Below are positions 3,521 to 30,352 of a DNA stretch of 36,328 nucleotides, piece by piece. Location of the stretch: contig SLHW01000025.1 in assembly GCA_007135955.1 (NCBI GenBank), positions 1-36,328 on the forward strand. The letters are read 5' to 3'. Position 1 is the first letter of the stretch, and the number at the start of each line of letters is the position of its first letter. Under the pieces are notes generated by a model. It saw nothing but the letters and a program-made list of their open reading frames with translations. It was not told where the DNA came from and did not search any database. Position numbers and translations under genes: made by a program. Source of the DNA: Candidatus Saccharimonadota bacterium (GTDB taxonomy: Bacteria > Patescibacteriota > Saccharimonadia > Saccharimonadales > SLHW01).

Positions 3521-3541
3521 TAATGTAAATGGTTTACATTA
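3521..3541 (+). promoter_or_regulatory. Perfect 9-3-9 palindrome, candidate Fur-family operator
   Basis: TAATGTAAA tgg TTTACATTA directly upstream of the fur-family start. TACATT (3535-3540), inside the right arm, lies 6 nt before the ATG at 3547. Confidence 0.55.
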
Positions 3542-3546
3542 TTGTT

Positions 3547-3939
3547 ATGGTTCAACGACAGACAAAATATACCAGAGCAGTAAGTGACGCTGTGGCTCGC
3601 CAAGGCCATACTACCAATCAGGCAATCCGTCACGATCTGCACAAGCAAGACATTATCGTGAGCGACACAACCACTCATCGAGTAACGCAACGACTACAGC
3701 AATCAGGCATAATCCGCGAGGCACCAAAAACCAAGGATGGTGTGATGCGATTTGACAGCAACACCGCTCAACACGACCACTTCATATGTAAATCGTGTGA
3801 TGGAATTCGTGATATTTCAATTAGTGAACAGATAAAACCCCTGCTCGCAGAGCAACTTGATGGCTGCAAAGTTAGTGGCAACCTAGTGATTTATGGATCG
3901 TGCAATACGTGTAGTAAAAAAACGAAAGGAACAACATGA
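3547..3939 (+). CDS. Fur-family metalloregulator (Fur/Zur/PerR type)
   Basis: Track ORF 3529..3939. The winged-helix part is TTTHRVTQRLQQSGII. The metal sites are HDHFICKSCDG and GSCNTC. I prefer the ATG at 3547 because the ATG at 3529 lies inside the palindrome. Confidence 0.8.
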   Translation: MVQRQTKYTRAVSDAVARQGHTTNQAIRHDLHKQDIIVSDTTTHRVTQRLQQSGIIREAPKTKDGVMRFDSNTAQHDHFICKSCDGIRDISISEQIKPLLAEQLDGCKVSGNLVIYGSCNTCSKKTKGTT

Positions 3940-4394
3940 AAGCAATACTAATAAGCTTACTAAGCCTCGGCATACTCATTGGAGTATTCGCCACATCCTC
4001 TAGCCCAGAATCGGCCCAGCAAGCCACTAATGCAAACCGTGATGTGACCTATGCGTCAGTCTTGAGTGCCGTTGATGATGGCGCTGCTTTTGTTGATGTT
4101 CGTACGCCAGCAGAATATTATGAAAGTCACTACGTCGGCGCAGAGCTATTCCCTCTCCAGGAGCTCCAGCAAGGCAAATTGCCAGCATACGACACCGATA
4201 CACCACTTTATGTGTACTGTCGCAGTGGCAATCGAACGAAAGAAGCAGCTGCTGTATTACGTCGAGCTGGTTATGAAGTTATCGACCTTGGTGGACTTCA
4301 GGATGTGGGAGCTATTGGTGGGGAGCTTACTCGCGACACGTGCCCACTCGGCGACGCTCAACTGTGTATTAACCAGTTCTCTGTTGACGGCTAA
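3936..4394 (+). CDS. Exported or membrane-anchored rhodanese-domain sulfurtransferase
   Basis: 152 aa with an N-terminal hydrophobic signal or anchor. The rhodanese active-site loop is YVYCRSGNRT. It has an ATGA overlap with the fur-family gene. Confidence 0.85.
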   Translation: MKAILISLLSLGILIGVFATSSSPESAQQATNANRDVTYASVLSAVDDGAAFVDVRTPAEYYESHYVGAELFPLQELQQGKLPAYDTDTPLYVYCRSGNRTKEAAAVLRRAGYEVIDLGGLQDVGAIGGELTRDTCPLGDAQLCINQFSVDG

Positions 4395-4598
4395 GGACAA
4401 ATTGTCATCCTATCATAAGTTACTGCAAGCACCGCTATTTCAATGCTCCATATCAAAAACTAGCGAAATAGGTCATCTAGGCAGATGGCAGGAATAAAAC
4501 CTGAGCAAGCCGTGAGTTTCATCATCAAAACTTCTCGATTTGAGTAGTACAATAGACAAGTACTGCCCAACTAACTCAACAAAGGAGCCACCCCAGCC

Positions 4599-4832
4599 AT
4601 GAAAAAGATTACTATGTACACTACCCCAACCTGTGTATTTTGCCCAGCAATTAAGCAGTTTCTAAGTAAGAACGATATTACTTACACCGAAATAGATGTC
4701 AGCAAAGACGAAGCAGCGCTCGAAGAGATGAAAAATATTTCTGGTCAGATGAGTGTTCCAGTAACGGTTATCGGTGATGAGGTAATCACCGGATACGACA
4801 AAAAGAAGCTACAGAAAGCGCTCGACGCCTAA
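4599..4832 (+). CDS. Glutaredoxin-like protein (NrdH/YruB type, CVFC active site)
   Basis: 77 aa. MYTTPTCVFCPAIKQFL ... VPVTVIGDEVITGYD is the Grx fold. A GGAG RBS is present, and there is a TAATG overlap with trxB. Confidence 0.8.
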   Translation: MKKITMYTTPTCVFCPAIKQFLSKNDITYTEIDVSKDEAALEEMKNISGQMSVPVTVIGDEVITGYDKKKLQKALDA

Positions 4833-5722
4833 TGTACGACGTCATAATTATCGGCGGTGGACCAGCTGGAATAACTGCTGGCATATACGCTGCCCGGAAA
4901 AAACTAAAGACCTTGCTATTAACGCGAGACTTCATCGGTCAAGTTGGACTAACAGGCCCCATCGAAAACTGGCCCGGTGAGCCACGAATTAAGGGCGCCG
5001 ATCTTATCAATCAGTTCGAGGAGCACCTGCGCAAACACACGCTCGATATAATCGAAGAAGAAGTTTCAGTAATCGAAAAAGACGATGTCTTTCGTATCAC
5101 AACCGAATCAGGTGAGAAAATGGCACGAACGGTTTTACTGGCGACTGGTAGAACGCCACGCTTCCTCGAGGTTCCTGGCGAGCAAGAATATATCGGCAAG
5201 GGTGTCGTCTACTGTGCAACCTGCGACGCGCCAGTCTATCAAAACAAGAAGGTGGTTGTCGTTGGTGGTGGCAATAACGGACTGTCTTCAGCAATCGAGC
5301 TAACTGATTACGCTAGCGAGGTAACCCTGCTAGAGATACAAGATAGCTGTCCAGCTGATGAGCTGCTGCAAGAGCGAGCTCGGGACAAAGGCGTGACTAT
5401 ACGAACTAATCAAACCATTACAAAAATATCCGGTGATGACTATGTGAGCGAAGTGGAGCTACGGGACGGATCGTCGATGCAAGTTGATGGTGTGTTTGTT
5501 GAAATTGGCTCGCTACCAAACTCTTCGGTTGCGCCAGCCTCTATCAAGCGCAACAAACTAAACGAAATCGAGATTGATCAGTACTCCTGTGCAACAAACC
5601 TAGACGGTTTTTATGCTGCTGGTGATGTAACCAATATCAAGGATAAACAAATAGTCACCGCTACCGGCGAAGGCGCAAAAGCTGCACTGTCGATATACTC
5701 ATACCTACGTAACTTAGAATAA
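4832..5722 (+). CDS. trxB: Thioredoxin-disulfide reductase, low-Mr type
   Basis: 296 aa. The FAD motif is IIIGGGPAG, the redox centre is CATCDAP, the second dinucleotide motif is VVVGGGNNG, and the C-terminal motif is GDVT. Confidence 0.85.
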   Translation: MYDVIIIGGGPAGITAGIYAARKKLKTLLLTRDFIGQVGLTGPIENWPGEPRIKGADLINQFEEHLRKHTLDIIEEEVSVIEKDDVFRITTESGEKMARTVLLATGRTPRFLEVPGEQEYIGKGVVYCATCDAPVYQNKKVVVVGGGNNGLSSAIELTDYASEVTLLEIQDSCPADELLQERARDKGVTIRTNQTITKISGDDYVSEVELRDGSSMQVDGVFVEIGSLPNSSVAPASIKRNKLNEIEIDQYSCATNLDGFYAAGDVTNIKDKQIVTATGEGAKAALSIYSYLRNLE

Positions 5723-5805: not shown

Positions 5806-6792
5806 ATGAACCTACTGATACTTCTATTTCTCTTGGCGGTTGGAATCTTTTTACTGATTCGATCAAGCGGATATCTCATTTCCGCACTGTCTGCAATCTC
5901 TAAGCAGTTGCATTTGTCGAAGTTTGTTATTTCGTTTTTGTTACTGTCGTTAGCAACCAGCTTGCCCGAACTTAGCGTTGGCATAAATGCGGCTATTGCC
6001 AAAGAGTCCGTTCTATCTCTCGGGGATGTACTTGGCACCAATATCGTCAACATCGCACTCATCCTCGGGCTAGTCGCCATTATTGGTGGTGGCATTAAAG
6101 TGCAGGACTATCATAGCTTCAAGCAAATTAGACTCATCACGCTCGTTATCGTAGTTGCACCCTTTTTGCTCTTGCTTGATGGTACGTTGTCGCGACTTGA
6201 TGGAGTATTGCTACTTGGCTTGTTCGTGTTTCGACTATGGCTGTTTGCAAAAGACAATGGCTACATCGAATCGGCATACCATTTGCATCTATCTGACAAA
6301 AACCACTCCCCTTCAGCTACCGCCAAGAAAAAACTTATGCACCAATTTATACGGTTTTTCATCAGCGCAGTGGTCTTGATAGGATCCGCCTACCTGGTGG
6401 TCAGCTCAGTCGTTGGCATGTCTGAACTACTTGGCGTCTCTAGTTTTGTGATTGGTCTGTTTGTCGTTGCTATCGGAACTAGTTTGCCTGAGCTAATGAT
6501 CGGCCTACGCAGTGTTAGCTCGCACAGCGAGTCAATTTCAGTCGGCAATATCTTTGGCGCGATTACCATCAATGCTAGTTTAGTGCTCGGGATTGTGGCC
6601 ATCATCCATCCGATTCAAGTAGAATCTTTTGCTCAATACCTGGTGCCAGCAGTAGTGACACTGCTCTCAATTAGCCTGGTGTATTGGTTCTTAAGGTCTA
6701 AACACACTATCACTCGCCCGCAAGGATTGCTACTTATCGCTGTGTATATAGCCTTCATAATCATTCAGGCCCAATCCGGCGTCGGTTTTTAG
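5806..6792 (+). CDS. CaCA-family cation/Ca2+ exchanger (YrbG-like)
   Basis: 328-aa polytopic protein. It has two alpha-repeat signatures, ATSLPELSVG and GTSLPELMIG. Confidence 0.85.
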   Translation: MNLLILLFLLAVGIFLLIRSSGYLISALSAISKQLHLSKFVISFLLLSLATSLPELSVGINAAIAKESVLSLGDVLGTNIVNIALILGLVAIIGGGIKVQDYHSFKQIRLITLVIVVAPFLLLLDGTLSRLDGVLLLGLFVFRLWLFAKDNGYIESAYHLHLSDKNHSPSATAKKKLMHQFIRFFISAVVLIGSAYLVVSSVVGMSELLGVSSFVIGLFVVAIGTSLPELMIGLRSVSSHSESISVGNIFGAITINASLVLGIVAIIHPIQVESFAQYLVPAVVTLLSISLVYWFLRSKHTITRPQGLLLIAVYIAFIIIQAQSGVGF

Positions 6793-6813
6793 GCCAATAG
6801 TGACGGGCCTTGC

Positions 6814-8235
6814 TTATAGCTGTTCTTCACCTATGCCTTCGGGGTCTTCATCAGGATCTAGTCCTTCTTGTTGGCTGCTAGAAATAAACTCTTCTTGGCT
6901 TTGAGTGTCCGGTATCTCAGTATCGTCTTGTATTGTAGCGACTGGAGGAATTTCTTGTAGCGGTTGTGGTAGTTGCAGTGACTGTGGTGCAGCTAGGGTG
7001 ACGAGTGAACTACCAGGACTCGGAGAATAATTTTTAACCCAGTCATCAGGACTATCTGTATCGAGACCAGCCTCACGACGCTCCAGTGAGGTGCCAGTTG
7101 GCGCAGTCTCTATGCCTTCATCCCAGAGTACGTCAGTATAATTTGGCCAGGTAGGATCTGGAGCGCCCCAGTTCACCGCGTCAACTATCTCTCCGTCTGT
7201 GTTTTTGAGGGTGAGCATATCATTTGTTTTATCTAGCTCATACCACGGCGCACCACCGAGGTTAATGCGAGTGATATTTCGGTCAACCTCCCAGAAACGA
7301 GCCCATACCGCACTATCATGTGACAGCAGTGCATATTCACCCGCGCCGATACTCACATTGGGGTGTATGGTATGACACACCGTACTCCGGCAGAGTTGCC
7401 AGTCTTTGATACTGACTGCTTCCTCGCCTGCGTTGTAGAGCTCAATCCACTGGTAGCGTGCTGGTGGCGGTGCCGGGCCGCGCTTATCGTCAGCCACATT
7501 GTAGTACACCTCGTTTATTACGATATTGGCAGCTTCTGCTTCGTCCCAAGTGCCAGCCACGAATACATTCCCTTGATTGACGGTTTGTGCGGTCCACTGC
7601 GCTGCCGTTGAGGGGATAAATAGGATTGATCCACCGAGCAATAGTACTAGTAATGCATGCGGGGGCGCGCCATGAGCACGTGGTTTTTCTCGCAGGCGAT
7701 ATATGCGTTTTTGTTTGCCAGCGAGCTCGCGGTAGATATTGCGCAGTTCGATTGCAATCACAAAGCTCGCCGGAATCAGGATCAGTAACCAATAGCCAGT
7801 AGTTGATGACACCGTATGCGCTGCGTAGCCAATATATGGCACGCTGCCACTCACTGTGCCTATAAGTTGCTCAAGCGTCACAACGCCACGATCCGCCACG
7901 TTATTGGCGTCGCCCTGCGTGATAAATCCGCCCGGCTCGGTGTCAATCACGCGGTGGGTCACTGTGTTGCTCGTGCCACTCTCTGAAAAGTACGTGATGA
8001 CATCGCCGACCACCACCTCCTCTGGCGAAATAGTCGTATCGATGATGACGACTGACCCAACGGCAATGTCTGGCGTCATTGATCCCGACATCACGGTGCG
8101 TAGCTGATAATTCCCAAGTAGTGAGGTATTAATACCGATAAATAGCAACAAAAACAAACCAGCCACGACAAACAGCAGCGTATAGAAGCTGCTGGCTATC
8201 ACTTGCTTGAGCTGATTTGGCTTGTGTTGCTGCAT
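6814..8235 (-). CDS. sipW: SipW-type (archaeal/ER-type) signal peptidase I fused to an internal signal peptide, a lamin-tail domain and an acidic tail
   Basis: Track ORF 6814..8244 starts at GTG; the ATG at 8235 has a GGTGGAG RBS. Peptidase boxes are SGSMTP, THRV and GDANNVAD, flanked by TM helices. These are followed by KQKRIYRLREKPRAHG, then ALLVLLLGGSILFI, then PSTAAQWTAQTVNQGNVFVAGTW. The lamin-tail domain motif is INEVYYN...YQWIELYNAGEEAVSIKDWQL. Confidence 0.8.
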   Translation of the reverse strand: MQQHKPNQLKQVIASSFYTLLFVVAGLFLLLFIGINTSLLGNYQLRTVMSGSMTPDIAVGSVVIIDTTISPEEVVVGDVITYFSESGTSNTVTHRVIDTEPGGFITQGDANNVADRGVVTLEQLIGTVSGSVPYIGYAAHTVSSTTGYWLLILIPASFVIAIELRNIYRELAGKQKRIYRLREKPRAHGAPPHALLVLLLGGSILFIPSTAAQWTAQTVNQGNVFVAGTWDEAEAANIVINEVYYNVADDKRGPAPPPARYQWIELYNAGEEAVSIKDWQLCRSTVCHTIHPNVSIGAGEYALLSHDSAVWARFWEVDRNITRINLGGAPWYELDKTNDMLTLKNTDGEIVDAVNWGAPDPTWPNYTDVLWDEGIETAPTGTSLERREAGLDTDSPDDWVKNYSPSPGSSLVTLAAPQSLQLPQPLQEIPPVATIQDDTEIPDTQSQEEFISSSQQEGLDPDEDPEGIGEEQL

Positions 8236-8284
8236 CCGCTCCACCTATCTATTCTTCAATTATGGTCTGAATTTTTAGAGCCGA

Positions 8285-8316
8285 CTCGGCGCCGTTTTTG
8301 CAGGTATGGCGCCGAG
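8285..8316 (-). promoter_or_regulatory. GC-rich intercistronic hairpin between the tasA-like gene and sipW
   Basis: CTCGGCGCC (8285-8293) pairs with GGCGCCGAG (8308-8316), a 9-bp perfect stem with a 14-nt loop. No U-tract follows on the - strand. Confidence 0.5.
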
Positions 8317-8346
8317 CTTAATACTTCTGGACCTGACTAACAAAAC

Positions 8347-9024
8347 CTACTCGTCAAATTCAAATACGCTTGTAGCTGTTGCCAGTAGGTCTACAGTAAA
8401 CTCCCTTTCCTGGTAGTGGTTGCTTGCATCTTTGGTAATTCTAACTTTTACGTCATAGATTGCTACTTGCCCAGTTGGTAAAGGTATTGAAGACCCCATT
8501 GGATTCGCTAATGAAGCTGGGTTTATTCGCCACTGCCGTAGCGTGTTGCCATCCTCGAAATCTATCCATTCACCAGTCGCTCCATTGTATGGCACCCACA
8601 AAGTCTTATCCGCTTGAGCGAGCCATGCATTCAAGCCTGTCCCAACTAATTTATTAGTGTCAACGACTTGCTCTACCTGGAACTCAAGTACATTGTCTAG
8701 GAATGGTGCGTCTTTGTCGTCAAATCGTGGATTCACCAACGCGAGATCAAATGTTATATCTGTTGATCCAATATTTGTAACCATGACATATGCTTGTTCT
8801 ACTGATCCAGGAACCATACCCTGTGCTTCAAAAAACTTGTGCTTGATCACGCCACCATCAGCACCCCTTTGCCCATCAAGGTGGAATACTAAGTTACCAG
8901 AATTAAATTGCTGGTCATCACTTGTAGCCGTTTCCGACCACGTGGCTTGTGTTGCGCCAAATAGCAAACCGGTGACACCCGCAATCACCGCCAGACTTAG
9001 CGCTACGTTTTTAAATTTATCCAT
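8347..9024 (-). CDS. TasA/camelysin-like secreted protein with SipW-cognate-type signal peptide
   Basis: Track ORF 8347..9060; the ATG at 9024 follows GAGGAGG. The signal peptide and cleavage region is LAVIAGVTGLLFGATQATWSETATSDDQQFNSGNLVF. Also present is MVPGSVEQAYVMVTNIGSTDITF, as in the TasA/camelysin family. Confidence 0.7.
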   Translation of the reverse strand: MDKFKNVALSLAVIAGVTGLLFGATQATWSETATSDDQQFNSGNLVFHLDGQRGADGGVIKHKFFEAQGMVPGSVEQAYVMVTNIGSTDITFDLALVNPRFDDKDAPFLDNVLEFQVEQVVDTNKLVGTGLNAWLAQADKTLWVPYNGATGEWIDFEDGNTLRQWRINPASLANPMGSSIPLPTGQVAIYDVKVRITKDASNHYQEREFTVDLLATATSVFEFDE

Positions 9025-9093
9025 ACAACACCTCCTCATAAGTGTTATGTTAATGAACACTTTCGACTATGGAGAGCGAAAACGAAAAAGTCA

Positions 9094-9107
9094 TTGACTA
9101 AGGTCAC
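9094..9107. promoter_or_regulatory. Candidate Crp/Fnr-family box in the tasA-like / crp divergent region
   Basis: TTGAC-TAAG-GTCAC, which reads as TTGA-N6-TCAC. Confidence 0.35.
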
Positions 9108-9176
9108 GAATTATGTCAATTAATAGCAAACCAGATTAGAATATGCTAAGATGTTCCCAAATAATACTGGAGTATC

Positions 9177-9833
9177 ATGGCAAAAGACGTATCACAAAAG
9201 GTAGCTGATTTCTTTTCGTCCTACAAGACAAGGCGCCTTGATAAAAAACAAACACTCATTCAGGCCGACTTTGAGCCCGATGGGGTGTATTACCTAATAA
9301 AAGGACAAGTTGGCCAGTGTGACATCGACCAATCTGGTAATGAGCTGATTATCAACGTATTTAAAAAAGGTAGTTTTTTCCCACTGAAATGGGCACTCGA
9401 TCAGCAGGCAAGCCCGTTTTACTTCTTGACGCTGAGCAGTGTTACCTATGTCCGTGCACCCCGCCACGAGGTCATAGAGTTTTTGCGTCGCGAGCCAGAT
9501 GTCGTCCTAGACGTTTTATCAAGAGTCTATTCCGGCGCTGAAGGGCTCTTGAGAAAAAACGCCCAGCTAATGGGTGGGGATGCCAGGTCTCGAGTCTTAC
9601 TAGACTTAATTATCACCTTTGAGCGCTTCGGTACTAAAACCGCTGATGGCGACTACCTGATTCCTATCAATGAAGTTGACCTTGCTAAACATACCGGCCT
9701 GGCCAGAGAGACAATTAGTCGACAAATAGCAACCCTGAAAAAGAAGCATGGCATCACCGTTTCCCGTGAAGGCATGCGTGTCACCTCGATAGACGACATC
9801 AAAGAAGAGCTCGGCATGTCCGATTTACTGTAG
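9177..9833 (+). CDS. Crp/Fnr-family transcriptional regulator
   Basis: 218 aa. It has an N-terminal cNMP-binding-like beta-barrel and a C-terminal HTH (LAKHTGLARETISRQIATLKK). A GGAG RBS is present. There is no N-terminal Cys cluster, so it is not FNR-like. Confidence 0.8.
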   Translation: MAKDVSQKVADFFSSYKTRRLDKKQTLIQADFEPDGVYYLIKGQVGQCDIDQSGNELIINVFKKGSFFPLKWALDQQASPFYFLTLSSVTYVRAPRHEVIEFLRREPDVVLDVLSRVYSGAEGLLRKNAQLMGGDARSRVLLDLIITFERFGTKTADGDYLIPINEVDLAKHTGLARETISRQIATLKKKHGITVSREGMRVTSIDDIKEELGMSDLL

Positions 9834-9983: not shown

Positions 9984-10397
9984 ATGACTCATATGAATAA
10001 GTATATCTTGGTGCTATTTGTGGCTGTGCTCGTTGGGCTAGTAGGTTTTTTTATGATTGCCAATAGCACAGAGTCCCAGCAAGCCGAGGAGAGAAACAAA
10101 ACTGACCCAGAACGCATTGCGATGAACGAATTCGTGCAGTGCTTAGCCGAAGAAGACGTTGTAGTATATGGCTCTGAAACCTGCCCGGCTTGCTTTCGCT
10201 TTGCCCAGCAGTTTGGTGGCTACGACGTCATCGATCCAATCTATGTGGAGTGTAGTGAAGACCGCGAAGCATGTGCAGCCAATATGCAAACCGGTTTCGT
10301 TCCAGAAGTCCAAATTGATGGCAACGTACTTGAAGGAGACAACAGCCTTGAGAGACTAGCCCAAGTCACTGGCTGTAAGTTGGACCTGTCAGAATAA
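9984..10397 (+). CDS. Membrane-anchored thioredoxin-fold protein (CPAC), resembling the Trx-like partner domain of bacterial VKOR
   Basis: 137 aa with an N-terminal TM helix. VVYGSETCPACFRFAQQFGG...YVECSEDREAC...LERLAQVTGC resembles the Trx domain fused to cyanobacterial VKOR. An alternative ATG is at 9993. Confidence 0.65.
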   Translation: MTHMNKYILVLFVAVLVGLVGFFMIANSTESQQAEERNKTDPERIAMNEFVQCLAEEDVVVYGSETCPACFRFAQQFGGYDVIDPIYVECSEDREACAANMQTGFVPEVQIDGNVLEGDNSLERLAQVTGCKLDLSE

Positions 10398-11590
10398 TGA
10401 GACGTACAGCTGCCTTAATCTTTAGTCTATTTCTCCTACTATTTGGTGCTGGTGCAGTCACAACACCCAGCCTCGTTCAAGCTACTGACGAGCCCACCCT
10501 GGAATCTACGGCAACAATAGAGCAGACGACCTCCGAGCAAACAGAAGATGTCGTTGAGCTTCACTATTTCGATGATCCACTCTGTTCAGTTTGTGCTCAG
10601 CAAAAAGAGTACATGGAACAACTTGAACAAGAATACGACAACCTCGTCATTAGCAAATATGACATTTCTGATACTGCTCGGTTTCGTGCTCTAGCCGAAG
10701 AACGTGGCATTACTGATTACCGAATCATGGCGCCTTCAACTTTTATCGGTAATGAACTATTGCAGTTTTCGAGCTTTGGCGAGCGTGAAGAAAAAGCGCT
10801 TATAGCAGCCATTGAAGGTAAAACCACAGAAAGTACCTCGGTTCTACGATTGCCGATAATCAATAGAGAGATCGATATGAGCACTTGGTCACTACCAATC
10901 TTAGCTATCTTGCTAGGAACACTTGATGGTTTTAATGTTTGCTCACTCGGTGCCTTAATACTAATACTATCAATTGTCTTGACCCTCGATTCACGAAAAA
11001 AGATTGTTCTATACGGTGGACTATTTATCCTAACAACTGTCTTAGTGTACGGCGGGCTGGTATTTATATGGGGGCAAGTCATCGATATGTTTATTGGGCA
11101 GCTACAGATCTTGCGCCTGCTGGTCGGGCTAGCAGCACTGGCCGGCTCTGCCTGGTTCTTTAAGGAGTTCTGGCGATTTTATAAATACGGACCATCCTGC
11201 AAGACATCTGATATGAAAATCGCTAAAAAAAGCTCGCAAAAGCTAATCGACACCTTCAACGAACCATCAAAAGGCCCGCTCATGCTCGCTGGTGGCATAA
11301 TCATGTTTGCAATTGTTATCACCATAGTGGAACTACCCTGCTCTATCGGAGTACCGATAGCGTTTACCGGTATACTGGTCGAGAGTGGTGTGTCACTAGG
11401 CATGTATACGCTTTATATACTGTTGTATCTACTGTTTTACATGCTGATCGAACTAATTATCTTTACCGGAGCTGTTATGACAAAAGAAATATGGTTCGCT
11501 GGATCAAAGTTCATCACCTGGACCACCCTCGCTGGCGCGCTTATCCTATTGTCACTTGCTGCATATTACCTTCTCTCGCTGATAAACTAG
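10397..11590 (+). CDS. Fusion of an exported Trx/Grx-like domain (CSVC) with a CcdA/DsbD-like two-Cys membrane domain
   Basis: 397 aa with a signal peptide. The soluble domain contains HYFDDPLCSVCAQQ. The polytopic domain has Cys in LDGFNVCSLGAL and VELPCSIGVP. It has a TAATG overlap with the upstream gene. Confidence 0.6.
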   Translation: MRRTAALIFSLFLLLFGAGAVTTPSLVQATDEPTLESTATIEQTTSEQTEDVVELHYFDDPLCSVCAQQKEYMEQLEQEYDNLVISKYDISDTARFRALAEERGITDYRIMAPSTFIGNELLQFSSFGEREEKALIAAIEGKTTESTSVLRLPIINREIDMSTWSLPILAILLGTLDGFNVCSLGALILILSIVLTLDSRKKIVLYGGLFILTTVLVYGGLVFIWGQVIDMFIGQLQILRLLVGLAALAGSAWFFKEFWRFYKYGPSCKTSDMKIAKKSSQKLIDTFNEPSKGPLMLAGGIIMFAIVITIVELPCSIGVPIAFTGILVESGVSLGMYTLYILLYLLFYMLIELIIFTGAVMTKEIWFAGSKFITWTTLAGALILLSLAAYYLLSLIN

Positions 11591-11784
11591 CGAGTTATCA
11601 TTTTTATGGCATGGGGTCGCTATTTACTAATTGCCTGACACGCCAAGTAATTTTTTATGCTACTAAGAATCCTAGTATTCATCATGCTAAGTAATGAAAA
11701 GAAACGATTTGTTAATAGCCTATGTCAGAAGTCACGAGTAAATACAGAAAAGCCCTGGTTATACAAAGCGTAATCAAACGAAAA

Positions 11785-11813
11785 TTGTAAAGTTGCCGCT
11801 AGCTACCTATACT
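11785..11813 (+). promoter_or_regulatory. Sigma70-type promoter of the DoxX-like gene
   Basis: TTGTAA (11785-11790), 17 nt, TATACT (11808-11813). Confidence 0.5.
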
Positions 11814-11846
11814 GTAAGCATAAACAATTTGAAAGGATGGTCTAAA

Positions 11847-12383
11847 ATGACTCGGAAAAAAGAAAAGATCGACGTCGATAGCGTGTGGGGATTAGCCAGG
11901 ATTGGGATTGGATTTGTGTTATTTTGGGCATTTATTGATAAGTTATTTGGTCTTGGTTTTGCAACTTGCCGCGATCAAACGACAGATGCAATCAACGTCA
12001 TGTGTAATAGTGCTTGGCTAGCTGGTGGCTCGCCAACAACTGGCTTTTTGCAGTTCGGTACTAGTGGGCCTCTAGCTAATGTCTACCAAGGTTTAGCGGG
12101 CAATCCGCTCATTGACTGGCTGTTTATGCTTGGCCTGCTTGGTATTGGCTTGGCACTGATACTGGGTATTGGCATGCGGATAGCTACGGCGACTGGCGTA
12201 GTTTTCTTTTTAATGCTCTATAGCGCTACGATGCCATCAACCAACAATCCGCTACTAAGCGACCACATCATCTATGCAATAGTCCTAGTCGGTCTACTCA
12301 AAGTCAACGATAAGCAAAAACTTGGCTTTGGTAACCAGTGGAAAAAGCTGAAGCTTGTCAAAAAACACCCAATACTTCGCTAA
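11847..12383 (+). CDS. DoxX-like membrane protein
   Basis: Track ORF starts at a TTG at 11793; the ATG at 11847 has an AAAGGA RBS. The protein has four TM helices and a GGSPTTGFL loop of the kind I associate with the DoxX/DoxD family. Confidence 0.5.
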   Translation: MTRKKEKIDVDSVWGLARIGIGFVLFWAFIDKLFGLGFATCRDQTTDAINVMCNSAWLAGGSPTTGFLQFGTSGPLANVYQGLAGNPLIDWLFMLGLLGIGLALILGIGMRIATATGVVFFLMLYSATMPSTNNPLLSDHIIYAIVLVGLLKVNDKQKLGFGNQWKKLKLVKKHPILR

Positions 12384-24135: not shown

Positions 24136-24786
24136 CTAAAGCAACGTCGACCAATAGAACCAGAATTGCACTACTATCATATAGATGACCGTGATAAACC
24201 AGAGCGCAGCAATAGTGAATGCGTGCTTAGCGATAAATGAAATTGTTATTTGAAGAGCACTGAACTTAAATTTAAGCACATTATGCCGTACGAGATATGC
24301 TGATACCACAAAGAAGAGCGGTGCAACCGCTAACCAGATTACTATACACCACGGACAAAGGGTGTTTAATATAAATAAGCTCTGATACACCAAGTACTGC
24401 ACAGACAAGAAACCGAAAAGCGAACCAATTAGCAACAACCGCCAAAACCACTGTGCAAGCTTAGTGGTAGCGAGCAATACGACGCCAACTGATATCAACA
24501 CACTGAACGTCGCTATTCCCAGAAATGAATGCGGTACACCAAACAGGCTTGCTTGAGCGCTCTCCATAATTGAACCGCAGTTCAAGATAGGGTTAATATC
24601 ACAAAGTGCAACTCTGTCTGGATCTACTAGACTTGCTAAGCGCTCCAGAGATAGAGCAAATGAAGCAATAAACCCAACAGCGCCCGAAATGATAAGATAA
24701 ATGCCTAAGCCACGCTGTCCAGCGTACCACTTTTTCTCTGATGGTTGTTTTCTAGAGTTAGATTTACTTATTTTTGATAGTTGCAT
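24136..24786 (-). CDS. Vitamin K epoxide reductase (VKOR) family protein, a DsbB analogue
   Basis: 216 aa. The loop Cys pair is CDINPILNCGSIMESAQASLFGVPHSFLG and the TM CxxC is LCPWCIV. There are five predicted TM helices and no fused Trx domain. Confidence 0.85.
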   Translation of the reverse strand: MQLSKISKSNSRKQPSEKKWYAGQRGLGIYLIISGAVGFIASFALSLERLASLVDPDRVALCDINPILNCGSIMESAQASLFGVPHSFLGIATFSVLISVGVVLLATTKLAQWFWRLLLIGSLFGFLSVQYLVYQSLFILNTLCPWCIVIWLAVAPLFFVVSAYLVRHNVLKFKFSALQITISFIAKHAFTIAALWFITVIYMIVVQFWFYWSTLL

Positions 24787-25753: not shown

Positions 25754-27148
25754 TTAGCTTTTGATTAATAAACGAGTTAACGAGTAAGAGCCAAAAAGTA
25801 CCGATACTCCAATGACTATTGGTAAAATATTCCATGAGCTCAAGCGCAAAGGCACATCTTCAACCACTTGCACCGAGAAATACCGAGTAACATTGCAGCC
25901 AAACCCATCAACAATCGTAGCGACACCGTTATAGATACCTGGGCTACTGTAACGATACCGAAATACTTGATTTGTCATCTGAGATGTCTCTAGAGTAAAC
26001 TGCTCAGACTCACCATCACCCCAGTTAATATGAACTGTCAGAGGAGGGCTCCCAGTTGCCTCACGAAGCCTTAATGCAACGTCATCATCGACAGCTACAC
26101 CCCAAAAGCGATAGGCCTCAAATGATGCATCGATAGAACATACCCCACGAATAGTACTAAATGTCAGGATTATTATGTTTGAGGGCTCACTGCAGACCTC
26201 TGCGATGCAAGCAACCACATACAGCTCATGACTATCACGTGTTGGACTAAGCAGCAATCGCCACGACCCATCAGCATCAGTAAAAATTGAACTAACAACC
26301 AAGCCATCTTGATAGAGCAGCAATTGACTATTGGGGGTTGCTATTCCAGTCAGTTCAACAGTTGAAGTCGTGATAGTCGCTCCGTCAGCTGGAGCTGTTA
26401 TTTGCGGTGGTGCTACAAAGTTAACGGTTGCCTGAGCTGCTTGATCAATATCCGGTACAGCAACAGGGGGTGCGATAAATTGTGTTATTGCAAACGAACC
26501 CTGATCAGATAGCTCACTAGTTTGATTGTTCTTGCTTGAAGATACGTCAAACTTAAACACGCCAACCCCAAAATCAGTAGCCGCTGCCCGAATAGTATAT
26601 TCCCCTATGTTATTTGCCGTAGCCTGTAATTGCCTGCCACCAACAACTTGAACAGTAACAATAGCACCGGGAACAGTAGAACCACTAAAAACAAAACTCT
26701 GATTAGAGACAATCGCTCTTTGAGGCGCTACTCTGACTGTTGGCGACAAAAATACCTCCAGTGCTGTTTGTTGCTGTGGTTGAAATGCTAGATTTATCGT
26801 TTTTCGCGAAGAGCTACGATTAGCTTTATCAGTATACAAAATACTAATATTGCTCGTGCCAGTGGGGATAGGCTGAATTGTTTTTGAAAATTCTCCATTT
26901 TTATTAGCCGTTGTCGAACCAATCTCTACATTATTTCGAAAAATAGTCACATGGGCGTCTGGTGCTGCTTTGCCAGATGCCAACAATGATGTTTGTGGCA
27001 CGGTTAATTGAATGGGTTGTGATGATTGAGCAGCTGCATTATTCATAGCAAAGACGGGAAATAAAAGAGCACTAACCCCTGTGACTACACTGCCAAAAAA
27101 TAGTTTGGTAATTTTGTGGTCAAAGAATGATTGTCGGCGCCACCACAC
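25754..27148 (-). CDS. Surface protein with a signal peptide, three Ig-like repeats, a PKD-like domain and a C-terminal TM anchor
   Basis: 464 aa with a GTG start 6 nt after the upstream stop. Repeated G.A.P.A.V.I....G..TA...G.F-type Ig-like units are present. The PKD-like part is VHINWGDGESEQF...YRYSSPGIYNGVATIVDGFGC. The terminal hydrophobic helix is followed by RLLIKS. Confidence 0.7.
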   Translation of the reverse strand: MWWRRQSFFDHKITKLFFGSVVTGVSALLFPVFAMNNAAAQSSQPIQLTVPQTSLLASGKAAPDAHVTIFRNNVEIGSTTANKNGEFSKTIQPIPTGTSNISILYTDKANRSSSRKTINLAFQPQQQTALEVFLSPTVRVAPQRAIVSNQSFVFSGSTVPGAIVTVQVVGGRQLQATANNIGEYTIRAAATDFGVGVFKFDVSSSKNNQTSELSDQGSFAITQFIAPPVAVPDIDQAAQATVNFVAPPQITAPADGATITTSTVELTGIATPNSQLLLYQDGLVVSSIFTDADGSWRLLLSPTRDSHELYVVACIAEVCSEPSNIIILTFSTIRGVCSIDASFEAYRFWGVAVDDDVALRLREATGSPPLTVHINWGDGESEQFTLETSQMTNQVFRYRYSSPGIYNGVATIVDGFGCNVTRYFSVQVVEDVPLRLSSWNILPIVIGVSVLFGSYSLTRLLIKS

Positions 27149-27154
27149 CAGCGT

Positions 27155-28144
27155 CTACTCGCCAGTCGACTTACCACTGAGCACTCGAAGTGCCAGCGTG
27201 ATTCGCTCTCGAAATCGCCACCCCATGAAGCCGATGAATACTACAGCTGCAGCAATCGGTGCGATGGTCTGATACGGGAACACAGTGAACGAAGTTTCGC
27301 TGGTAAGAATCTGATTGTCTTCACCATAAATTACCGTTAAGCTTGCGCTGTAACGGCCAAATCGAAAGCCTGGCTCATTCCAGTCGGTTATAACTCTTCG
27401 TACTGCATCAGGGATTACATTTCGCTGATCGATTTCTATTCGCTCAACTGTATTTCCGAATATATTCTTTATTTCGATTTGACCAGAAGGTCGAAAATGT
27501 ACGTTGCCAGTGTTTAAAACTCTCGTTTCAAATTGGATAGGATCTTGATTACTCCATATATTTTTGAGTGAACGAAAGGATGCTATTTCTGCTGACTCAT
27601 CAACATCACCTGCAATCTTTACTAAAATGACCGGAGCTATTTCTTGAGAAACCAGCGCCACGTCGCCTGCCTGCTCTGGTGGAATCGTCCGAAAAACCAA
27701 TGAACCAAAATGACCACCCGGCTCGGCATTATCCGGAACAGTTATATTCATTTTAAAATCAGCTGTTTGACGGGAGGCAATTGTGGTCTGCTCAGGATCA
27801 ACTGTAATCCATTGCGATAATGAAAAAGCTGTCGTTTCTTCTGTTAGCTCAACTGCCCCATCCTCACCTTGTGGGAGGAAATTTCTTGCGACAACTTCTA
27901 TTTCAATACTATCTGCACTCCCATTAGTTAGACGAAACGTGCTATCAATACTATCGCCAGGGTTTGCTGAGAGTTCTAGTAGTTGTGGTGAGATAGCGAG
28001 ACTAATCGCGTCTTCATCAATCTGTTGCGCTCCGGCAGTAAAAGATCTATACACAGATAGCCCTAATGCAAACACAAGGCAAAGTAGTGCAACAATTACT
28101 GCAGCGTTAAACTTATCTGTAAGTAATAAATAATTTCGTTCCAT
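27155..28144 (-). CDS. DUF916/DUF3324-like (WxL-interacting-protein-like) two-beta-sandwich protein with C-terminal TM anchor, paralogue 2
   Basis: Track ORF 27155..28150 starts at GTG; an ATG is at 28144. Motifs are ISPQLLELSANPGDSIDSTFRLTNGS, SQWITVDP and NITVPDNAEPGGHFGSLVF. A second sandwich contains VLNTGNVHF. The TM helix is followed by basic residues. Confidence 0.65.
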   Translation of the reverse strand: MERNYLLLTDKFNAAVIVALLCLVFALGLSVYRSFTAGAQQIDEDAISLAISPQLLELSANPGDSIDSTFRLTNGSADSIEIEVVARNFLPQGEDGAVELTEETTAFSLSQWITVDPEQTTIASRQTADFKMNITVPDNAEPGGHFGSLVFRTIPPEQAGDVALVSQEIAPVILVKIAGDVDESAEIASFRSLKNIWSNQDPIQFETRVLNTGNVHFRPSGQIEIKNIFGNTVERIEIDQRNVIPDAVRRVITDWNEPGFRFGRYSASLTVIYGEDNQILTSETSFTVFPYQTIAPIAAAVVFIGFMGWRFRERITLALRVLSGKSTGE

Positions 28145-28287
28145 GCGCACGTGTTTTAAATAGTCTCAGGGCTTTCTCTATAAGTATCTACTAAACATTG
28201 TACGGTATCATTCACCAGATTGCCACAACATGACAACTCAAACTCTTTTATTCCTGGGAAAACCCCGAGCTGACTATTAATCAGTAT

Positions 28288-29325: not shown

Positions 29326-29373
29326 AAGTGTTTCCTTTTTCTTTTTTATACATTACATGCTATTCAAGCTTAT

Positions 29374-29400
29374 GTTATAACACAGCGGATACTGATGCAA
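29374..29400 (-). promoter_or_regulatory. Internal promoter in front of the 345-aa subunit gene
   Basis: The - strand reads TTGCAT (29395-29400), 15 nt, TATAAC (29374-29379). A TG lies one base upstream of the -10, giving an extended -10 (TGtTATAAC). Confidence 0.45.
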
Positions 29401-29407
29401 GTCAGTT

Positions 29408-30343: not shown

Positions 30344-30352
30344 ACCTATCTA

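What the first reader, a model, noticed from the sequence alone, without database searches (positions are those of the whole stretch)
7030..7734. Signal peptidase SipW fused in-frame to what looks like its own substrate (internal SipW-type signal peptide plus lamin-tail domain)
Residues 1-170 of the 6814..8244 ORF form a complete archaeal/ER-type signal peptidase I. It has the SGSMTP Ser box, the THRV His box and GDANNVAD, plus N- and C-terminal TM helices as in B. subtilis SipW. The ORF then continues (nt 7540-7734) with a basic stretch (KQKRIYRLREKPRAHG), a hydrophobic helix (ALLVLLLGGSILFI) and PSTAAQWTAQTVNQGNVFVAGTWD. That segment mirrors the signal-peptide and cleavage region of the adjacent TasA-like protein (GATQATWSETATSDDQQFNSGNLVF) and of TasA/camelysin-type SipW substrates. 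A lamin-tail domain follows (nt 7030-7533; INEVYYN...YQWIELYNAGEEAVSIKDWQL), then an acidic P/Q/E-rich tail. The topology is self-consistent: TM2 runs out-to-in, the basic loop is inside, and TM3 runs in-to-out. The enzyme could therefore release its own C-terminal passenger in cis or in trans. In B. subtilis the equivalents (tapA, sipW, tasA) are separate genes. The LTD part could be a TapA-like anchor or nucleator for the TasA-like fibre.
Basis: partly seen in the sequence, partly recalled or inferred. Interest (0 to 1): 0.65.

Follow-up and report, generated by a model that had tools for sequence, protein, structure and literature searches.

The report
Signal peptidase fused to its substrate
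One gene in an uncultured soda-lake bacterium joins a SipW-type signal peptidase to the secreted lamin-tail-domain protein that related bacteria encode as a separate gene just downstream, so the enzyme probably cuts its own tail free next to a TasA-like fibre gene.

Summary
ORF 6814..8244 (-) encodes, in order:
- a complete archaeal/ER-type signal peptidase I (TIGR02228, 99 bits; Ser55/His97/Asp112/Asp118 invariant);
- a basic cytoplasmic loop;
- a signal-peptide-like h-region with a T-A-A|Q-W site;
- a lamin-tail domain (Pfam, 58 bits; lamin Ig fold by Foldseek);
- a disordered acidic tail.

It is not an assembly artefact. Independent metagenome assemblies show no indels. At least 58 protein clusters at 50% identity share the full architecture.

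The decisive evidence is comparative. In 41 of 83 related peptidases the LTD protein is a separate gene immediately downstream of sipW (median overlap 8 nt). Where the motif was detected, that gene starts with an N-terminal SipW-type signal peptide that aligns with the window's internal segment. The fusion seems to have arisen at least four times.

The upstream gene is TasA-like (top fold hit: TasA fibre 8aur).

Cleavage itself, cis or trans, and a TapA-like fibre-initiator role for the LTD part are inferred, not shown. I found no published description. I rate it a new variant of the tapA-sipW-tasA kind of system.

The parts
6814..8244 (-). Fused gene sipW::LTD. It is 476 aa from GTG 8244; the likely real start is ATG 8235, giving 473 aa.
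   Evidence: P0001 is identical apart from two substitutions (473 aa).
8131..8187 (-). TM1 (residues 20-38), N-in.
   Evidence: Hydropathy 2.65 and a positive N-terminus. AF2 helix 9-39.
7741..8190 (-). Archaeal/ER-type signal peptidase I domain (residues 19-168). Catalytic residues: Ser55 (nt 8080-8082), His97 (7954-7956), Asp112 (7909-7911), Asp118 (7891-7893).
   Evidence: TIGR02228 99 bits. Invariant columns. Foldseek SEC11 7p2q_A/7p2p_A, prob 1.0.
7750..7806 (-). TM2 (residues 147-165), running out to in, as at the C-terminus of stand-alone SipW.
   Evidence: Stand-alone relatives end shortly after this helix.
7672..7749 (-). Basic cytoplasmic loop (residues 166-191; 9 K/R, 3 D/E). It corresponds to the SipW C-terminal tail plus the n-region of the former signal peptide.
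   Evidence: Disordered in the AF2 model at 180-194. No in-frame ATG or GTG here; the only alternative start codon is a TTG inside the h-region.
7615..7656 (-). h-region of the internal signal peptide (residues 197-210, ALLVLLLGGSILFI), flanked by prolines.
   Evidence: Aligns with the h-regions of free LTD pre-proteins.
7600..7614 (-). c-region P-S-T-A-A (residues 211-215). The predicted scissile bond is Ala215|Gln216 (nt 7600|7599). P3 is Thr, P1 is Ala and P2' is Trp217.
   Evidence: Position-specific counts. An aromatic P2' is the SipW-versus-LepB hallmark (PMC10269814).
7546..7599 (-). Post-cleavage motif QWTAQTVNQGNVFVAGTW (residues 216-233). It is a predicted donor-strand-like N-terminus of the released passenger. 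Asn226 is nearly invariant.
   Evidence: Low pLDDT and flexible in the AF2 model.
7030..7527 (-). Lamin-tail domain (residues 240-405), with a Cys285-x4-Cys290 pair.
   Evidence: Pfam LTD 58 bits. AF2 beta-sandwich, pLDDT ~80. Foldseek lamin A/C 3gef, TMt 0.74. Cys pair.
6817..7029 (-). Disordered acidic P/Q/E-rich tail (residues 406-476), variable between strains.
   Evidence: pLDDT <50 over 415-476. An alternative contig diverges at 7037. The tails of P0002 and P0003 differ.
8285..8316 (-). Intergenic hairpin CTCGGCGCC-14 nt-GGCGCCGAG between the TasA-like gene and the fused gene, with no U-run. It may be an attenuator or an mRNA-stabilising element.
   Evidence: MFE -23.9 kcal/mol, z = -2.7.
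8347..9024 (-). TasA-like fibre-subunit gene (225 aa from ATG 9024). Its signal peptide MDKFKNVALSLAVIAGVTGLLFGATQA|TWSE... is encoded at nt 8944-9024.
   Evidence: TIGR04088 17-18 bits, just under the cut-off of 19. Own HMM 21.9 bits. 2 of 5 family members hit PF12389. Foldseek top hit is the TasA fibre 8aur_A, E 7.8e-5, then AbpA 7ueg_A.
9177..9833 (+). Divergently transcribed Crp/Fnr-type regulator, a possible regulator of the cassette. This is context only and was not tested.
   Evidence: Pfam cNMP_binding plus HTH_Crp_2. A Crp-like gene also lies ~3 kb upstream in L082.

Best explanation
The gene is a natural read-through fusion of two neighbouring, translationally coupled genes of a TasA-type fibre cassette that recurs mainly in genome records labelled Patescibacteria/CPR. 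The two genes are sipW (archaeal/ER-type signal peptidase I) and the lamin-tail-domain (LTD) pre-protein encoded just downstream.

The product inserts with three membrane passes. TM1 runs N-in, the catalytic domain lies outside, TM2 returns to the cytoplasm, and a basic loop follows. The former signal peptide of the LTD protein (h-region 197-210) then acts as an internal start-transfer signal that puts the LTD outside.

The peptidase domain, of the same molecule or of a neighbouring one, then cuts at T-A-A215|Q216-W. This releases an LTD protein whose new N-terminus (QWTAQTVNQGNVF...) resembles the donor strand of the TasA-like protein encoded immediately upstream. The signal peptide stays attached to the enzyme as a third helix.

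The released LTD protein most likely acts as the minor partner of the TasA-like fibre, as TapA does in B. subtilis: an initiator, cap or anchor that donates a strand but has no TasA-type acceptor domain.

Shown here: the domain content, the reality and conservation of the fusion, homology of the C-terminal half to free SipW-type pre-proteins, conservation of the cleavage-site signature, positive-inside topology, and the TasA-like fold of the neighbour.

Inferred: the cleavage itself, cis versus trans, and the fibre-initiator role.
For: Domains and fold. Catalytic Ser/His/Asp/Asp are invariant.

Fusion is real: no indels or joints in 4 assemblies, and one contig from another lake spans 7455-8127. 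The fused ORF is kept at 27-80% identity. 58 of the best 150 representatives at 50% identity match the whole profile in one stretch.

Split equivalents: 41 of 83 related peptidases have an LTD gene directly downstream. 39 of these overlap the sipW stop or lie within 30 nt (median -8 nt). The small split LTD proteins align through h-region, cleavage site, motif and LTD.

Cleavage signature in the 13 fused proteins: P3 = T in 11/13, P1 = A/S in 13/13, P2' aromatic in 12/13, P11' = N in 12/13. The signature is the same in 129 free N-terminal signal peptides. Within the window clade P3 and P1 are kept while P2 and P1' vary (TAA|Q, TSA|Q, TMA|L).

Profiles: TIGR04088 is above cut-off on the internal segment of P0015, P0010 and P0008. 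An independent HMM from free signal peptides gives 19.1 bits on window residues 198-233, against a shuffle maximum of 5.7.

The fused ORF has no in-frame ATG or GTG between TM2 and the motif, so the LTD is made only as a fusion.

Topology.

Neighbour is TasA-like.

The post-cleavage strands of the LTD protein and of the TasA-like neighbour are more alike within a genome (0.50) than between genomes (0.37, 0 of 5000 shuffles).

Literature: TapA's N-terminus mimics the TasA donor strand and nucleates the fibre (PMC9674648, PMC10151520). An aromatic P2' makes TasA a SipW-specific substrate (PMC10269814).
Against: There is no experimental evidence of processing.

The window's own internal segment fails the curated TIGR04088 model, with AAQWTAQ in place of NAYFSD.

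The co-variation test has only 15 genomes, some of them related. In it the window's own pair scored just 0.15, because the neighbour's motif carries an insertion.

My motif HMMs derive from this family, so the counts are partly by construction.

The LTD has no homology to TapA.

The function of bacterial LTDs is unknown.

The AF2 models have only moderate confidence (pLDDT 66).

The inference of independent fusions rests on an unbootstrapped NJ tree.
Confidence: 0.65

Rival explanations
1. Uncleaved tether. The third hydrophobic segment is a permanent membrane anchor. The LTD stays covalently attached to the peptidase as a surface-exposed accessory domain, for example a membrane-anchored base for the TasA-like fibre, or a substrate- or wall-binding module. 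The motif then serves only as a strand or spacer.
For: No processing data exist. The window motif has diverged from the canonical one and fails TIGR04088. B. subtilis TapA is reported to co-localise with the membrane (PMC10151520), so a permanently anchored initiator would make sense. SipW-sortase fusions (P0026, P0041) and haloarchaeal peptidases with long C-terminal extensions have extra TM segments but no visible motif, so C-terminal additions to this enzyme need not be substrates.
Against: P3 Thr and P1 Ala/Ser lie before the mature N-terminus and would have no role in an uncleaved protein. They are nevertheless kept in 11-13 of 13 fusions of several apparent origins, and within the window clade while adjacent positions vary. 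The h-region is only 14 residues and is flanked by prolines, like a signal peptide rather than a stable TM helix. The free-standing orthologues are ordinary pre-proteins.
Confidence: 0.2
2. The fusion is cleaved as proposed, but the LTD passenger has nothing to do with the TasA-like fibre. It is an independent exoprotein, such as an adhesin or a DNA- or glycan-binding protein, that merely shares the SipW export route. The shared motif then reflects peptidase recognition only.
For: The function of LTDs in bacteria is unknown. LTDs occur in many giant multi-LTD surface proteins and in ExeM-like nucleases (weak hit). The motif similarity could be explained by one peptidase recognising both proteins.
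Against: The gene order (TasA-like gene(s), then sipW, then LTD gene) recurs across many lineages. Conservation extends 13-18 residues into the mature part (G-N-x-F...G-T-W). That is well beyond what a signal peptidase contacts, and it covers the region that is the donor strand in TasA (PMC9674648). Some downstream LTD proteins themselves carry a TasA-like N-domain: L047 has a weak PF12389 hit, and P0013 and P0016 begin with a TasA-like N-terminal sequence by eye.
Confidence: 0.3
3. Artefact. A sequencing or assembly error, such as a lost stop codon, a frameshift or a chimeric join, merged two separate genes.
For: In most relatives the two genes are separate and overlap by a few bases, so a single error could fuse them. 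Logan unitigs of three runs break at 7549-7569.
Against: Four independent runs show no indels or joints, and a contig from a different lake (sampled 2012) spans 7455-8127. The fused ORF is kept in diverged homologues from other samples (P0002-P0005 at 50-80%; many more at 27-37%). The linker is a proper basic loop with no stop in any of them.
Confidence: 0.02

Closest known systems
Bacillus subtilis tapA-sipW-tasA operon (SipW, an ER/archaeal-type signal peptidase, with its two substrates TasA and TapA)
   Same: Both have a dedicated Ser/His-type signal peptidase encoded beside a TasA-fold fibre subunit and a second, minor Ig-like secreted protein. Both substrates carry the special signal peptide with small P3/P1 residues and an aromatic P2'. 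In both, the minor protein's mature N-terminus resembles the fibre's donor strand. In B. subtilis the tapA stop overlaps the sipW start (PMC10151520). Here the sipW stop overlaps the LTD-gene start in relatives.
   Different: The gene order differs (tasA-like, then sipW, then LTD). The minor protein is an LTD with no sequence homology to TapA. In the window lineage the enzyme and the minor substrate are one polypeptide, with the signal peptide internal. The peptidase scores 92.8 bits against the Bacillus SipW equivalog model, whose cut-off is 190, so it is a relative and not an orthologue.
Split sipW / LTD-pre-protein gene pairs in genomes mostly labelled Patescibacteria (e.g. L012, L017, L026, L008, L079)
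   Same: The split pairs contain the same peptidase family, motif and LTD. The C-terminal half of the window protein aligns end to end with these 211-246-aa pre-proteins.
   Different: They are two genes rather than one, and the signal peptide is N-terminal.
LexA/UmuD (peptidase family S24, same clan SF as S26 signal peptidases)
   Same: These Ser-protease domains of the same clan cleave their own polypeptide. This is a precedent for intramolecular cleavage. Foldseek also lists the LexA C-domain and UmuD among weaker matches.
   Different: They are soluble cytoplasmic regulators with a Ser/Lys dyad. No membrane or signal peptide is involved.
Internal signal peptides of viral and eukaryotic polyproteins cleaved by the ER signal peptidase complex (SEC11)
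   Same: In both cases a signal-peptide-like segment in the middle of a multi-spanning precursor is cut on the trans side by an ER-type Ser/His signal peptidase.
   Different: There the peptidase is a separate host enzyme. Here the enzyme and the substrate are the same chain.

Membership tests
Archaeal/ER-type signal peptidase I (TIGR02228; MEROPS S26B) | Profile match above the curated cut-off | tested here: met
   99 bits against 51.85, residues 19-168.
Archaeal/ER-type signal peptidase I (TIGR02228; MEROPS S26B) | Catalytic Ser and His (not Lys), plus the two conserved Asp | tested here: met
   Ser55, His97, Asp112 and Asp118 are invariant in 15 sequences. Structural match to human SEC11A/C in 7p2p/7p2q.
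Archaeal/ER-type signal peptidase I (TIGR02228; MEROPS S26B) | Peptidase activity on signal peptides | not testable with these tools
   Needs an enzyme assay or in-vivo processing.
Bacillus SipW equivalog (NF046067) | Profile match above the equivalog cut-off | tested here: not met
   92.8 bits against 190. It is a relative, not an orthologue.
SipW-dependent-type signal peptide (TIGR04088) | Profile match above cut-off (19 bits) on the segment in question | tested here: not met
   Window residues 176-245: no hit at E<=10. The feature is met in fused relatives P0015 (25.4), P0010 (20.6) and P0008 (20.4). The window neighbour scores 17.1-18.1, just below cut-off.
SipW-dependent-type signal peptide (TIGR04088) | Small residues at P3 and P1, aromatic at P2', G-N-x-F about 10-13 residues into the mature part, and a gene next to a SipW-type peptidase | tested here: met
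   Window: T213, A215, W217, G225-N226-V-F228. An HMM from 112 free signal peptides gives 19.1 bits against a shuffle maximum of 5.7.
SipW-dependent-type signal peptide (TIGR04088) | Located at the N-terminus of the pre-protein | tested here: not met
   Here the segment is internal (residues ~192-215), after the peptidase domain. That is the novelty.
Lamin tail domain (Pfam PF00932) | Profile match above the gathering score, and an Ig-like beta-sandwich fold | tested here: met
   58 bits against 34.3. Foldseek lamin A/C 3gef_A, E 2.6e-7, TMt 0.74.
TasA/camelysin family (Pfam PF12389), for the upstream neighbour 8347..9024 | Profile match above the gathering score | tested here: not met
   The window protein has no Pfam hit. 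2 of 5 close homologues hit PF12389, best E 1.8e-6.
TasA/camelysin family (Pfam PF12389), for the upstream neighbour 8347..9024 | TasA-type jelly-roll fold with an N-terminal donor strand | tested here: inconclusive
   The AF2 model (pLDDT 65.8) has as top Foldseek hits the TasA fibre 8aur_A (E 7.8e-5, prob 1.0, TM 0.44) and AbpA 7ueg_A. The model confidence and the TM-score are both modest.
TapA/YqxM (TIGR04087), for the LTD passenger | Sequence homology to TapA | tested here: not met
   No hit for the window protein. The only hit among relatives is 13.7 bits against a cut-off of 80, in P0008. The relation is by analogy only.

The most novel reading that the evidence does not exclude
The protein is a self-processing signal peptidase. 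It cuts its own internal signal peptide in cis, once per molecule, and releases a fibre-initiating LTD protein exactly where TasA-like subunits emerge. It also keeps the cleaved signal peptide covalently attached as a third transmembrane helix. That helix could occupy or gate the substrate groove, so that peptidase activity toward the major fibre subunit is coupled one-to-one to delivery of the initiator. This would be the first enzyme-substrate fusion described for a type I signal peptidase. It would also point to a surface-fibre system, recurring mainly in genomes labelled Patescibacteria/CPR, that may be relevant to attachment to host cells.
Probability: 0.3. Interest if true: 0.75.

Novelty: new variant of a known kind. 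Interest (0 to 1): 0.62.

Why it matters
Type I signal peptidases are normally studied as enzymes that act on other proteins. A recurrent natural fusion of one to its cognate substrate offers three things:
- a built-in reporter for SipW/SEC11-type specificity, where an aromatic P2' is tolerated;
- a direct test of cis against trans cleavage in the membrane;
- genetic evidence of the Rosetta-stone type that the LTD protein and the peptidase work together.

It also defines a three-part cassette (TasA-like subunit, SipW, LTD protein) that I could not find described. The cassette occurs mainly in Patescibacteria/CPR genome records. Surface structures of these organisms are poorly known and may mediate their episymbiotic attachment.

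Finally, it suggests a function for bacterial lamin-tail domains: acting as the minor partner of donor-strand-exchange fibres.

Tried and rejected
- TIGR04088 on the window's own internal segment: no hit, even at E<=10. I therefore relied on relatives and on an independent HMM.
- Pfam on the TasA-like neighbour: no hit.
- Profile search of the neighbour family against PDB sequences: only chance hits, E>1.
- Assembly-join hypothesis: rejected.
- Separate translation of the LTD half from an internal start: rejected. There is no in-frame ATG or GTG between residues 171 and 228, and the only TTG lies inside the h-region.
- Taxonomic placement through PurA: unresolved. The closest relatives are unnamed, and named hits are ~60% identical and come from unrelated phyla.
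- Cluster look-up: no names or accessions.
- tRNA and Rfam scans of the window: nothing found.
- Metatranscriptome: only two short contigs, one exact over 6781-6955 (the 3' end of the fused gene). This is too little to call expression.
- Literature searches for SipW with lamin tail domain, SipW with Patescibacteria, signal peptidase with LTD, LTD with CPR, and TIGR04088: no description of the fusion or of the cassette.
- Promoter and terminator scan of 6600-9400: nothing convincing.
Full report
WHAT IS THERE

The minus-strand ORF 6814..8244 (476 aa) is real. Its likely start is ATG 8235 (Met4), which follows a GGTGGAG Shine-Dalgarno sequence. That start matches the 473-aa database twin P0001. 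Residue numbers below count from the GTG at 8244.

Profile searches give two domains above their curated cut-offs. NCBIfam TIGR02228 (archaeal-type signal peptidase I) covers residues 19-168 at 99 bits against a cut-off of 51.85. Pfam LTD covers residues 236-360 at 58 bits against 34.3. The Bacillus SipW equivalog model scores 92.8 bits, below its cut-off of 190. The enzyme is therefore a SipW relative, not an orthologue.

In an alignment of 15 fused homologues Ser55, His97, Asp112 and Asp118 are invariant. This is the Ser/His/Asp/Asp set of ER/archaeal-type enzymes.

An AlphaFold2 model (pLDDT 66) shows the following elements:
- helix 9-39 (TM1);
- a beta-rich domain, 46-135;
- helix 148-180 (TM2);
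- a disordered stretch, 180-194;
- helix 195-217;
- a low-confidence flexible stretch, 211-238;
- a beta-sandwich, 241-405, with pLDDT about 80;
- a disordered tail, 415-476.

Foldseek matches the sandwich to the lamin A/C Ig fold (3gef, TMt 0.74). It matches the N-terminal domain to SEC11 of the human signal peptidase complex (7p2q/7p2p, prob 1.0).

THE FUSION IS NOT AN ARTEFACT

The sequence occurs in several soda-lake and alkaline-sediment metagenomes. Contigs from four runs laid on 6700-9200 show no insertions, deletions or joints. A contig from a different lake, sampled in 2012, runs uninterrupted over 7455-8127, across the junction.

Homologues at 77-80% (P0002, P0003), ~50% (P0004, P0005) and 27-37% identity keep the single ORF. 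In an exhaustive profile search of 1.84 billion representatives, 58 of the best 150 proteins match the whole profile (peptidase through LTD) in a single stretch. The architecture is therefore a sizeable, conserved family.

Public sources call these proteins 'signal peptidase I' or give them no name.

THE C-TERMINAL HALF IS A FORMER SEPARATE PRE-PROTEIN

I fetched 80 genome loci, mostly from records titled Patescibacteria/CPR (Saccharibacteria, Kerfeld-, Woese-, Shapiro-, Kaiser-, Taylorbacteria, Paceibacterota and others), plus two metagenome contigs. I scanned all their ORFs with profiles cut from the alignment.

A recurrent gene order appears: one or two genes whose products start with the SipW-type motif, then sipW (about 170-200 aa), then a gene for an LTD protein. 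Of 83 peptidases:
- 41 have the LTD gene directly downstream;
- 8 are fused to an LTD;
- 5 are fused to another passenger behind the same motif.

In 39 of the 41 split cases the sipW stop and the LTD-gene start overlap or lie within 30 nt. The median is -8 nt, and the 4-nt ATGA overlap is common. A small mutation would therefore suffice to fuse them.

The smallest split LTD proteins (L008, L012, L017, L026, L079; 211-246 aa) consist of four parts. These are Met-Lys, a hydrophobic h-region, the motif 'T-N-A|Y-F-S-D...G-N-x-F..G-T-W', and 'V-I-N-E-V-Y-Y' with the rest of the LTD. They align column for column with window residues ~190-405. The stand-alone SipW proteins end in a short basic tail just after TM2.

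A neighbour-joining tree of the peptidase domains places the LTD fusions in at least four clades, each next to split relatives. The tree is crude and has no support values, so the number of fusion events is provisional. The different linker sequences in each clade agree with independent origins.

THE INTERNAL SEGMENT LOOKS LIKE A CLEAVABLE SipW-TYPE SIGNAL PEPTIDE

The curated TIGR04088 model does not detect the window's own segment. It does hit the equivalent internal segment of fused relatives at or above its 19-bit cut-off: P0015 25.4, P0010 20.6 and P0008 20.4 bits. P0007 (17.6) and P0005 (16.1) fall just below.

To avoid circularity I built an HMM from 112 free N-terminal signal peptides of other genomes, leaving out the window clade. 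It scores window residues 198-233 at 19.1 bits and the neighbour's N-terminus at 21.9 bits. No other window ORF exceeds 5.3 bits, and 2000 shuffles of the segment reach at most 5.7.

Position by position, the 13 fused proteins carry the following:
- Thr at P3 in 11 of 13;
- Ala or Ser at P1 in 13 of 13;
- an aromatic residue at P2' in 12 of 13;
- Asn at P11' in 12 of 13.

The signature is the same in 129 free signal peptides.

In the window the site reads P-S-T-A-A215|Q216-W-T-A-Q. In the neighbour it reads G-A-T-Q-A|T-W-S-E. Both have Trp at P2'. An aromatic P2' is the feature reported to make the TasA site a poor LepB substrate and a SipW substrate (PMC10269814).

Within the window clade P3 and P1 are conserved while P2 and P1' vary (TAA|Q, TSA|Q, TMA|L). 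This pattern is expected if cleavage is still under selection.

The h-region is 14 residues long and is bracketed by prolines. The fused ORF has no in-frame ATG or GTG from which the LTD half could be made separately.

TOPOLOGY

The positive-inside rule gives N-in for TM1 and a net-acidic catalytic domain outside. The TM2-TM3 loop is strongly basic: 9 K/R against 3 D/E in the window, and 5-15 K/R in the relatives where my simple hydropathy predictor resolved the three helices (it failed for L007, L064 and L030). The stretch after the third segment is uncharged. The LTD is therefore predicted to lie outside, on the same side as the active site.

A Cys-x4-Cys pair in the LTD (C285/C290) is conserved in the window clade and in L008. 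The window also carries several thiol-redox genes, including VKOR. This fits an extracytoplasmic domain but does not prove it.

THE NEIGHBOUR AND THE LIKELY FUNCTION

The gene upstream on the same strand (8347..9024) has no Pfam hit of its own. Two of its five homologues hit PF12389 (the TasA/camelysin family) at E down to 1.8e-6. Its AF2 model (pLDDT 65.8) has as best PDB matches the TasA fibre (8aur_A, E 7.8e-5) and the archaeal bundling pilus AbpA (7ueg_A). TasA homologues have been noted in Patescibacteria before (PMC9245690).

In B. subtilis, TasA polymerises by N-terminal donor-strand exchange. TapA is a minor Ig-fold protein that is also cut by SipW. Its mature N-terminus resembles the TasA donor strand, and it supplies the first strand (PMC9674648, PMC10151520).

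The LTD passenger here has the same layout: a donor-strand-like N-terminus followed by an unrelated Ig-like domain with no TasA-type acceptor. Conservation extends about 18 residues into the mature part, further than a peptidase should need.

In 15 genomes the post-cleavage strands of the LTD protein and the adjacent TasA-like protein are more alike within a genome (0.50) than across genomes (0.37, sd 0.025; 0 of 5000 shuffles). Some of these lineages are related, and the window's own pair aligned poorly in this test, at 0.15.

Some downstream LTD proteins carry a TasA-like domain themselves. L047 has a weak PF12389 hit. P0013 and P0016 begin with a TasA-like N-terminal sequence by eye.

I therefore favour a TapA-like initiator, cap or anchor role. 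This step is inferred.

MECHANISM PROPOSED

1. The fusion inserts in the membrane with three spans.
2. The peptidase domain cuts after Ala215, in cis or in trans.
3. The LTD protein is released with the N-terminus QWTAQ...
4. The signal peptide remains attached to the enzyme as a third helix.

Fusion would fix a 1:1 stoichiometry and co-localise the enzyme with the initiator. This echoes the low and similar abundance of TapA and SipW, and their overlapping stop and start codons, in B. subtilis (PMC10151520).

Self-cleavage has a precedent in the same protease clan, in LexA and UmuD (established knowledge; weak structural matches).

RIVALS

- An uncleaved tether is the main alternative (about 0.2). 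Conservation of P3 and P1 argues against it.
- A cleaved passenger unrelated to the fibre is possible (about 0.3 for that functional step).
- An artefact is essentially excluded.

NOVELTY

I found no paper that mentions SipW together with an LTD, the fusion, or the cassette. The parts are all known: SipW-type peptidase, its special signal peptide, TasA-like fibres, and the LTD. What is new is the covalent enzyme-substrate arrangement with an internal signal peptide, together with the LTD protein as a regular third member of the cassette in genomes mostly labelled Patescibacteria/CPR. I rate it a new variant of a known kind.

LIMITS

- The source organism is not placed. PurA was uninformative, and in the peptidase tree the window clade sits among sequences with mixed labels.
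- No coordinates of the AF2 model were available, so I could not measure the distance between Ser55 and the predicted site.
- RNA evidence is negligible.

Noticed in passing
window 8347-9024 (-); loose ends at 8945 and 9073: The TasA-like gene looks like a swappable allele. Its homologues P0067-P0071 share a signal peptide that is identical except for one L/V position (MDKFKNVALSLAVIAGVTGL[L/V]FGATQA), but their mature domains are only 36-61% identical. P0071 (38% identical) appears to lie on the same-length (19.8-kb) contig as P0001, the near-identical twin of the fused protein. Alternative contigs in the same samples share only the part that encodes the signal peptide.
   Followed up: partly
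window 6817-7037 (-): The acidic C-terminal tail of the fused protein varies between strains. An alternative contig with 8 mismatches over 7037-7122 diverges at 7037, where the LTD ends. P0002 and P0003 have longer, different tails.
   Followed up: partly
window 8285-8316 (-): A perfect 9-bp GC-rich hairpin with a 14-nt loop lies between the TasA-like gene and the fused gene, without a U-run (MFE -23.9 kcal/mol, z -2.7). It may set the ratio of major subunit to peptidase/LTD transcript.
   Followed up: partly
window 7549-7569: Logan unitigs of three runs all break here, just after the motif, while a fourth run reads through. There is probably a branch in the assembly graph caused by strain variants or a short repeat shared with a paralogue. 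This is unexplained.
   Followed up: no
window 3529-5722, 9984-12383, 24136-24786: The window is dense in thiol-redox and disulfide genes. By Pfam: VKOR at 24136-24786. By reading the translations only, without a profile search: a Fur-like regulator, a rhodanese-like protein, a glutaredoxin-like protein, thioredoxin reductase, a secreted thioredoxin-like protein, a DsbD/CcdA-like membrane protein and DoxX.
   Followed up: no
window 25754-34162 (-): A cluster of large predicted surface proteins. It includes a 464-aa protein with Big_6 Ig domains, a 331-aa protein with a weak WxL-interacting peptidoglycan-binding domain, two proteins of 311-345 aa with no hits, and a 1269-aa protein. None carries the SipW-type motif.
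   Followed up: no
window 9177-9833 (+); L082 4138-4806: A Crp/Fnr-type regulator is transcribed divergently from the TasA-like gene. A Crp-like gene also lies ~3 kb upstream of the cassette in L082. It may be a conserved regulator.
   Followed up: no
P0026, P0041; P0027, P0029, P0030, P0036, P0038: Other C-terminal fusions of this peptidase family exist. In P0026 and P0041 the peptidase is fused to a sortase domain (PF04203). In five further proteins, of which only P0036 carries a taxon label (Halovivax, a haloarchaeon), it has a long acidic extension with extra hydrophobic segments. None of these shows the SipW-type motif by eye.
   Followed up: no
L047 7941-11045; L020, L028, L030, L065, L074; P0022, P0032: The peptidase-plus-internal-motif layout also carries non-LTD or composite passengers. 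L047 carries a weak TasA-like PF12389 segment plus fn3 plus LTD in 1034 aa, although my motif profile did not detect the internal motif there. The others carry passengers with no Pfam domain.
   Followed up: partly
L081 3997-6432 (-) and 12508-13317 (-): The closest long relative contig carries three further genes of 234-257 aa with no Pfam hits, next to the cassette on the other strand. A sortase gene lies 3 kb downstream. Whether these three are additional TasA-like subunits was not checked; they did not match my motif profile.
   Followed up: no
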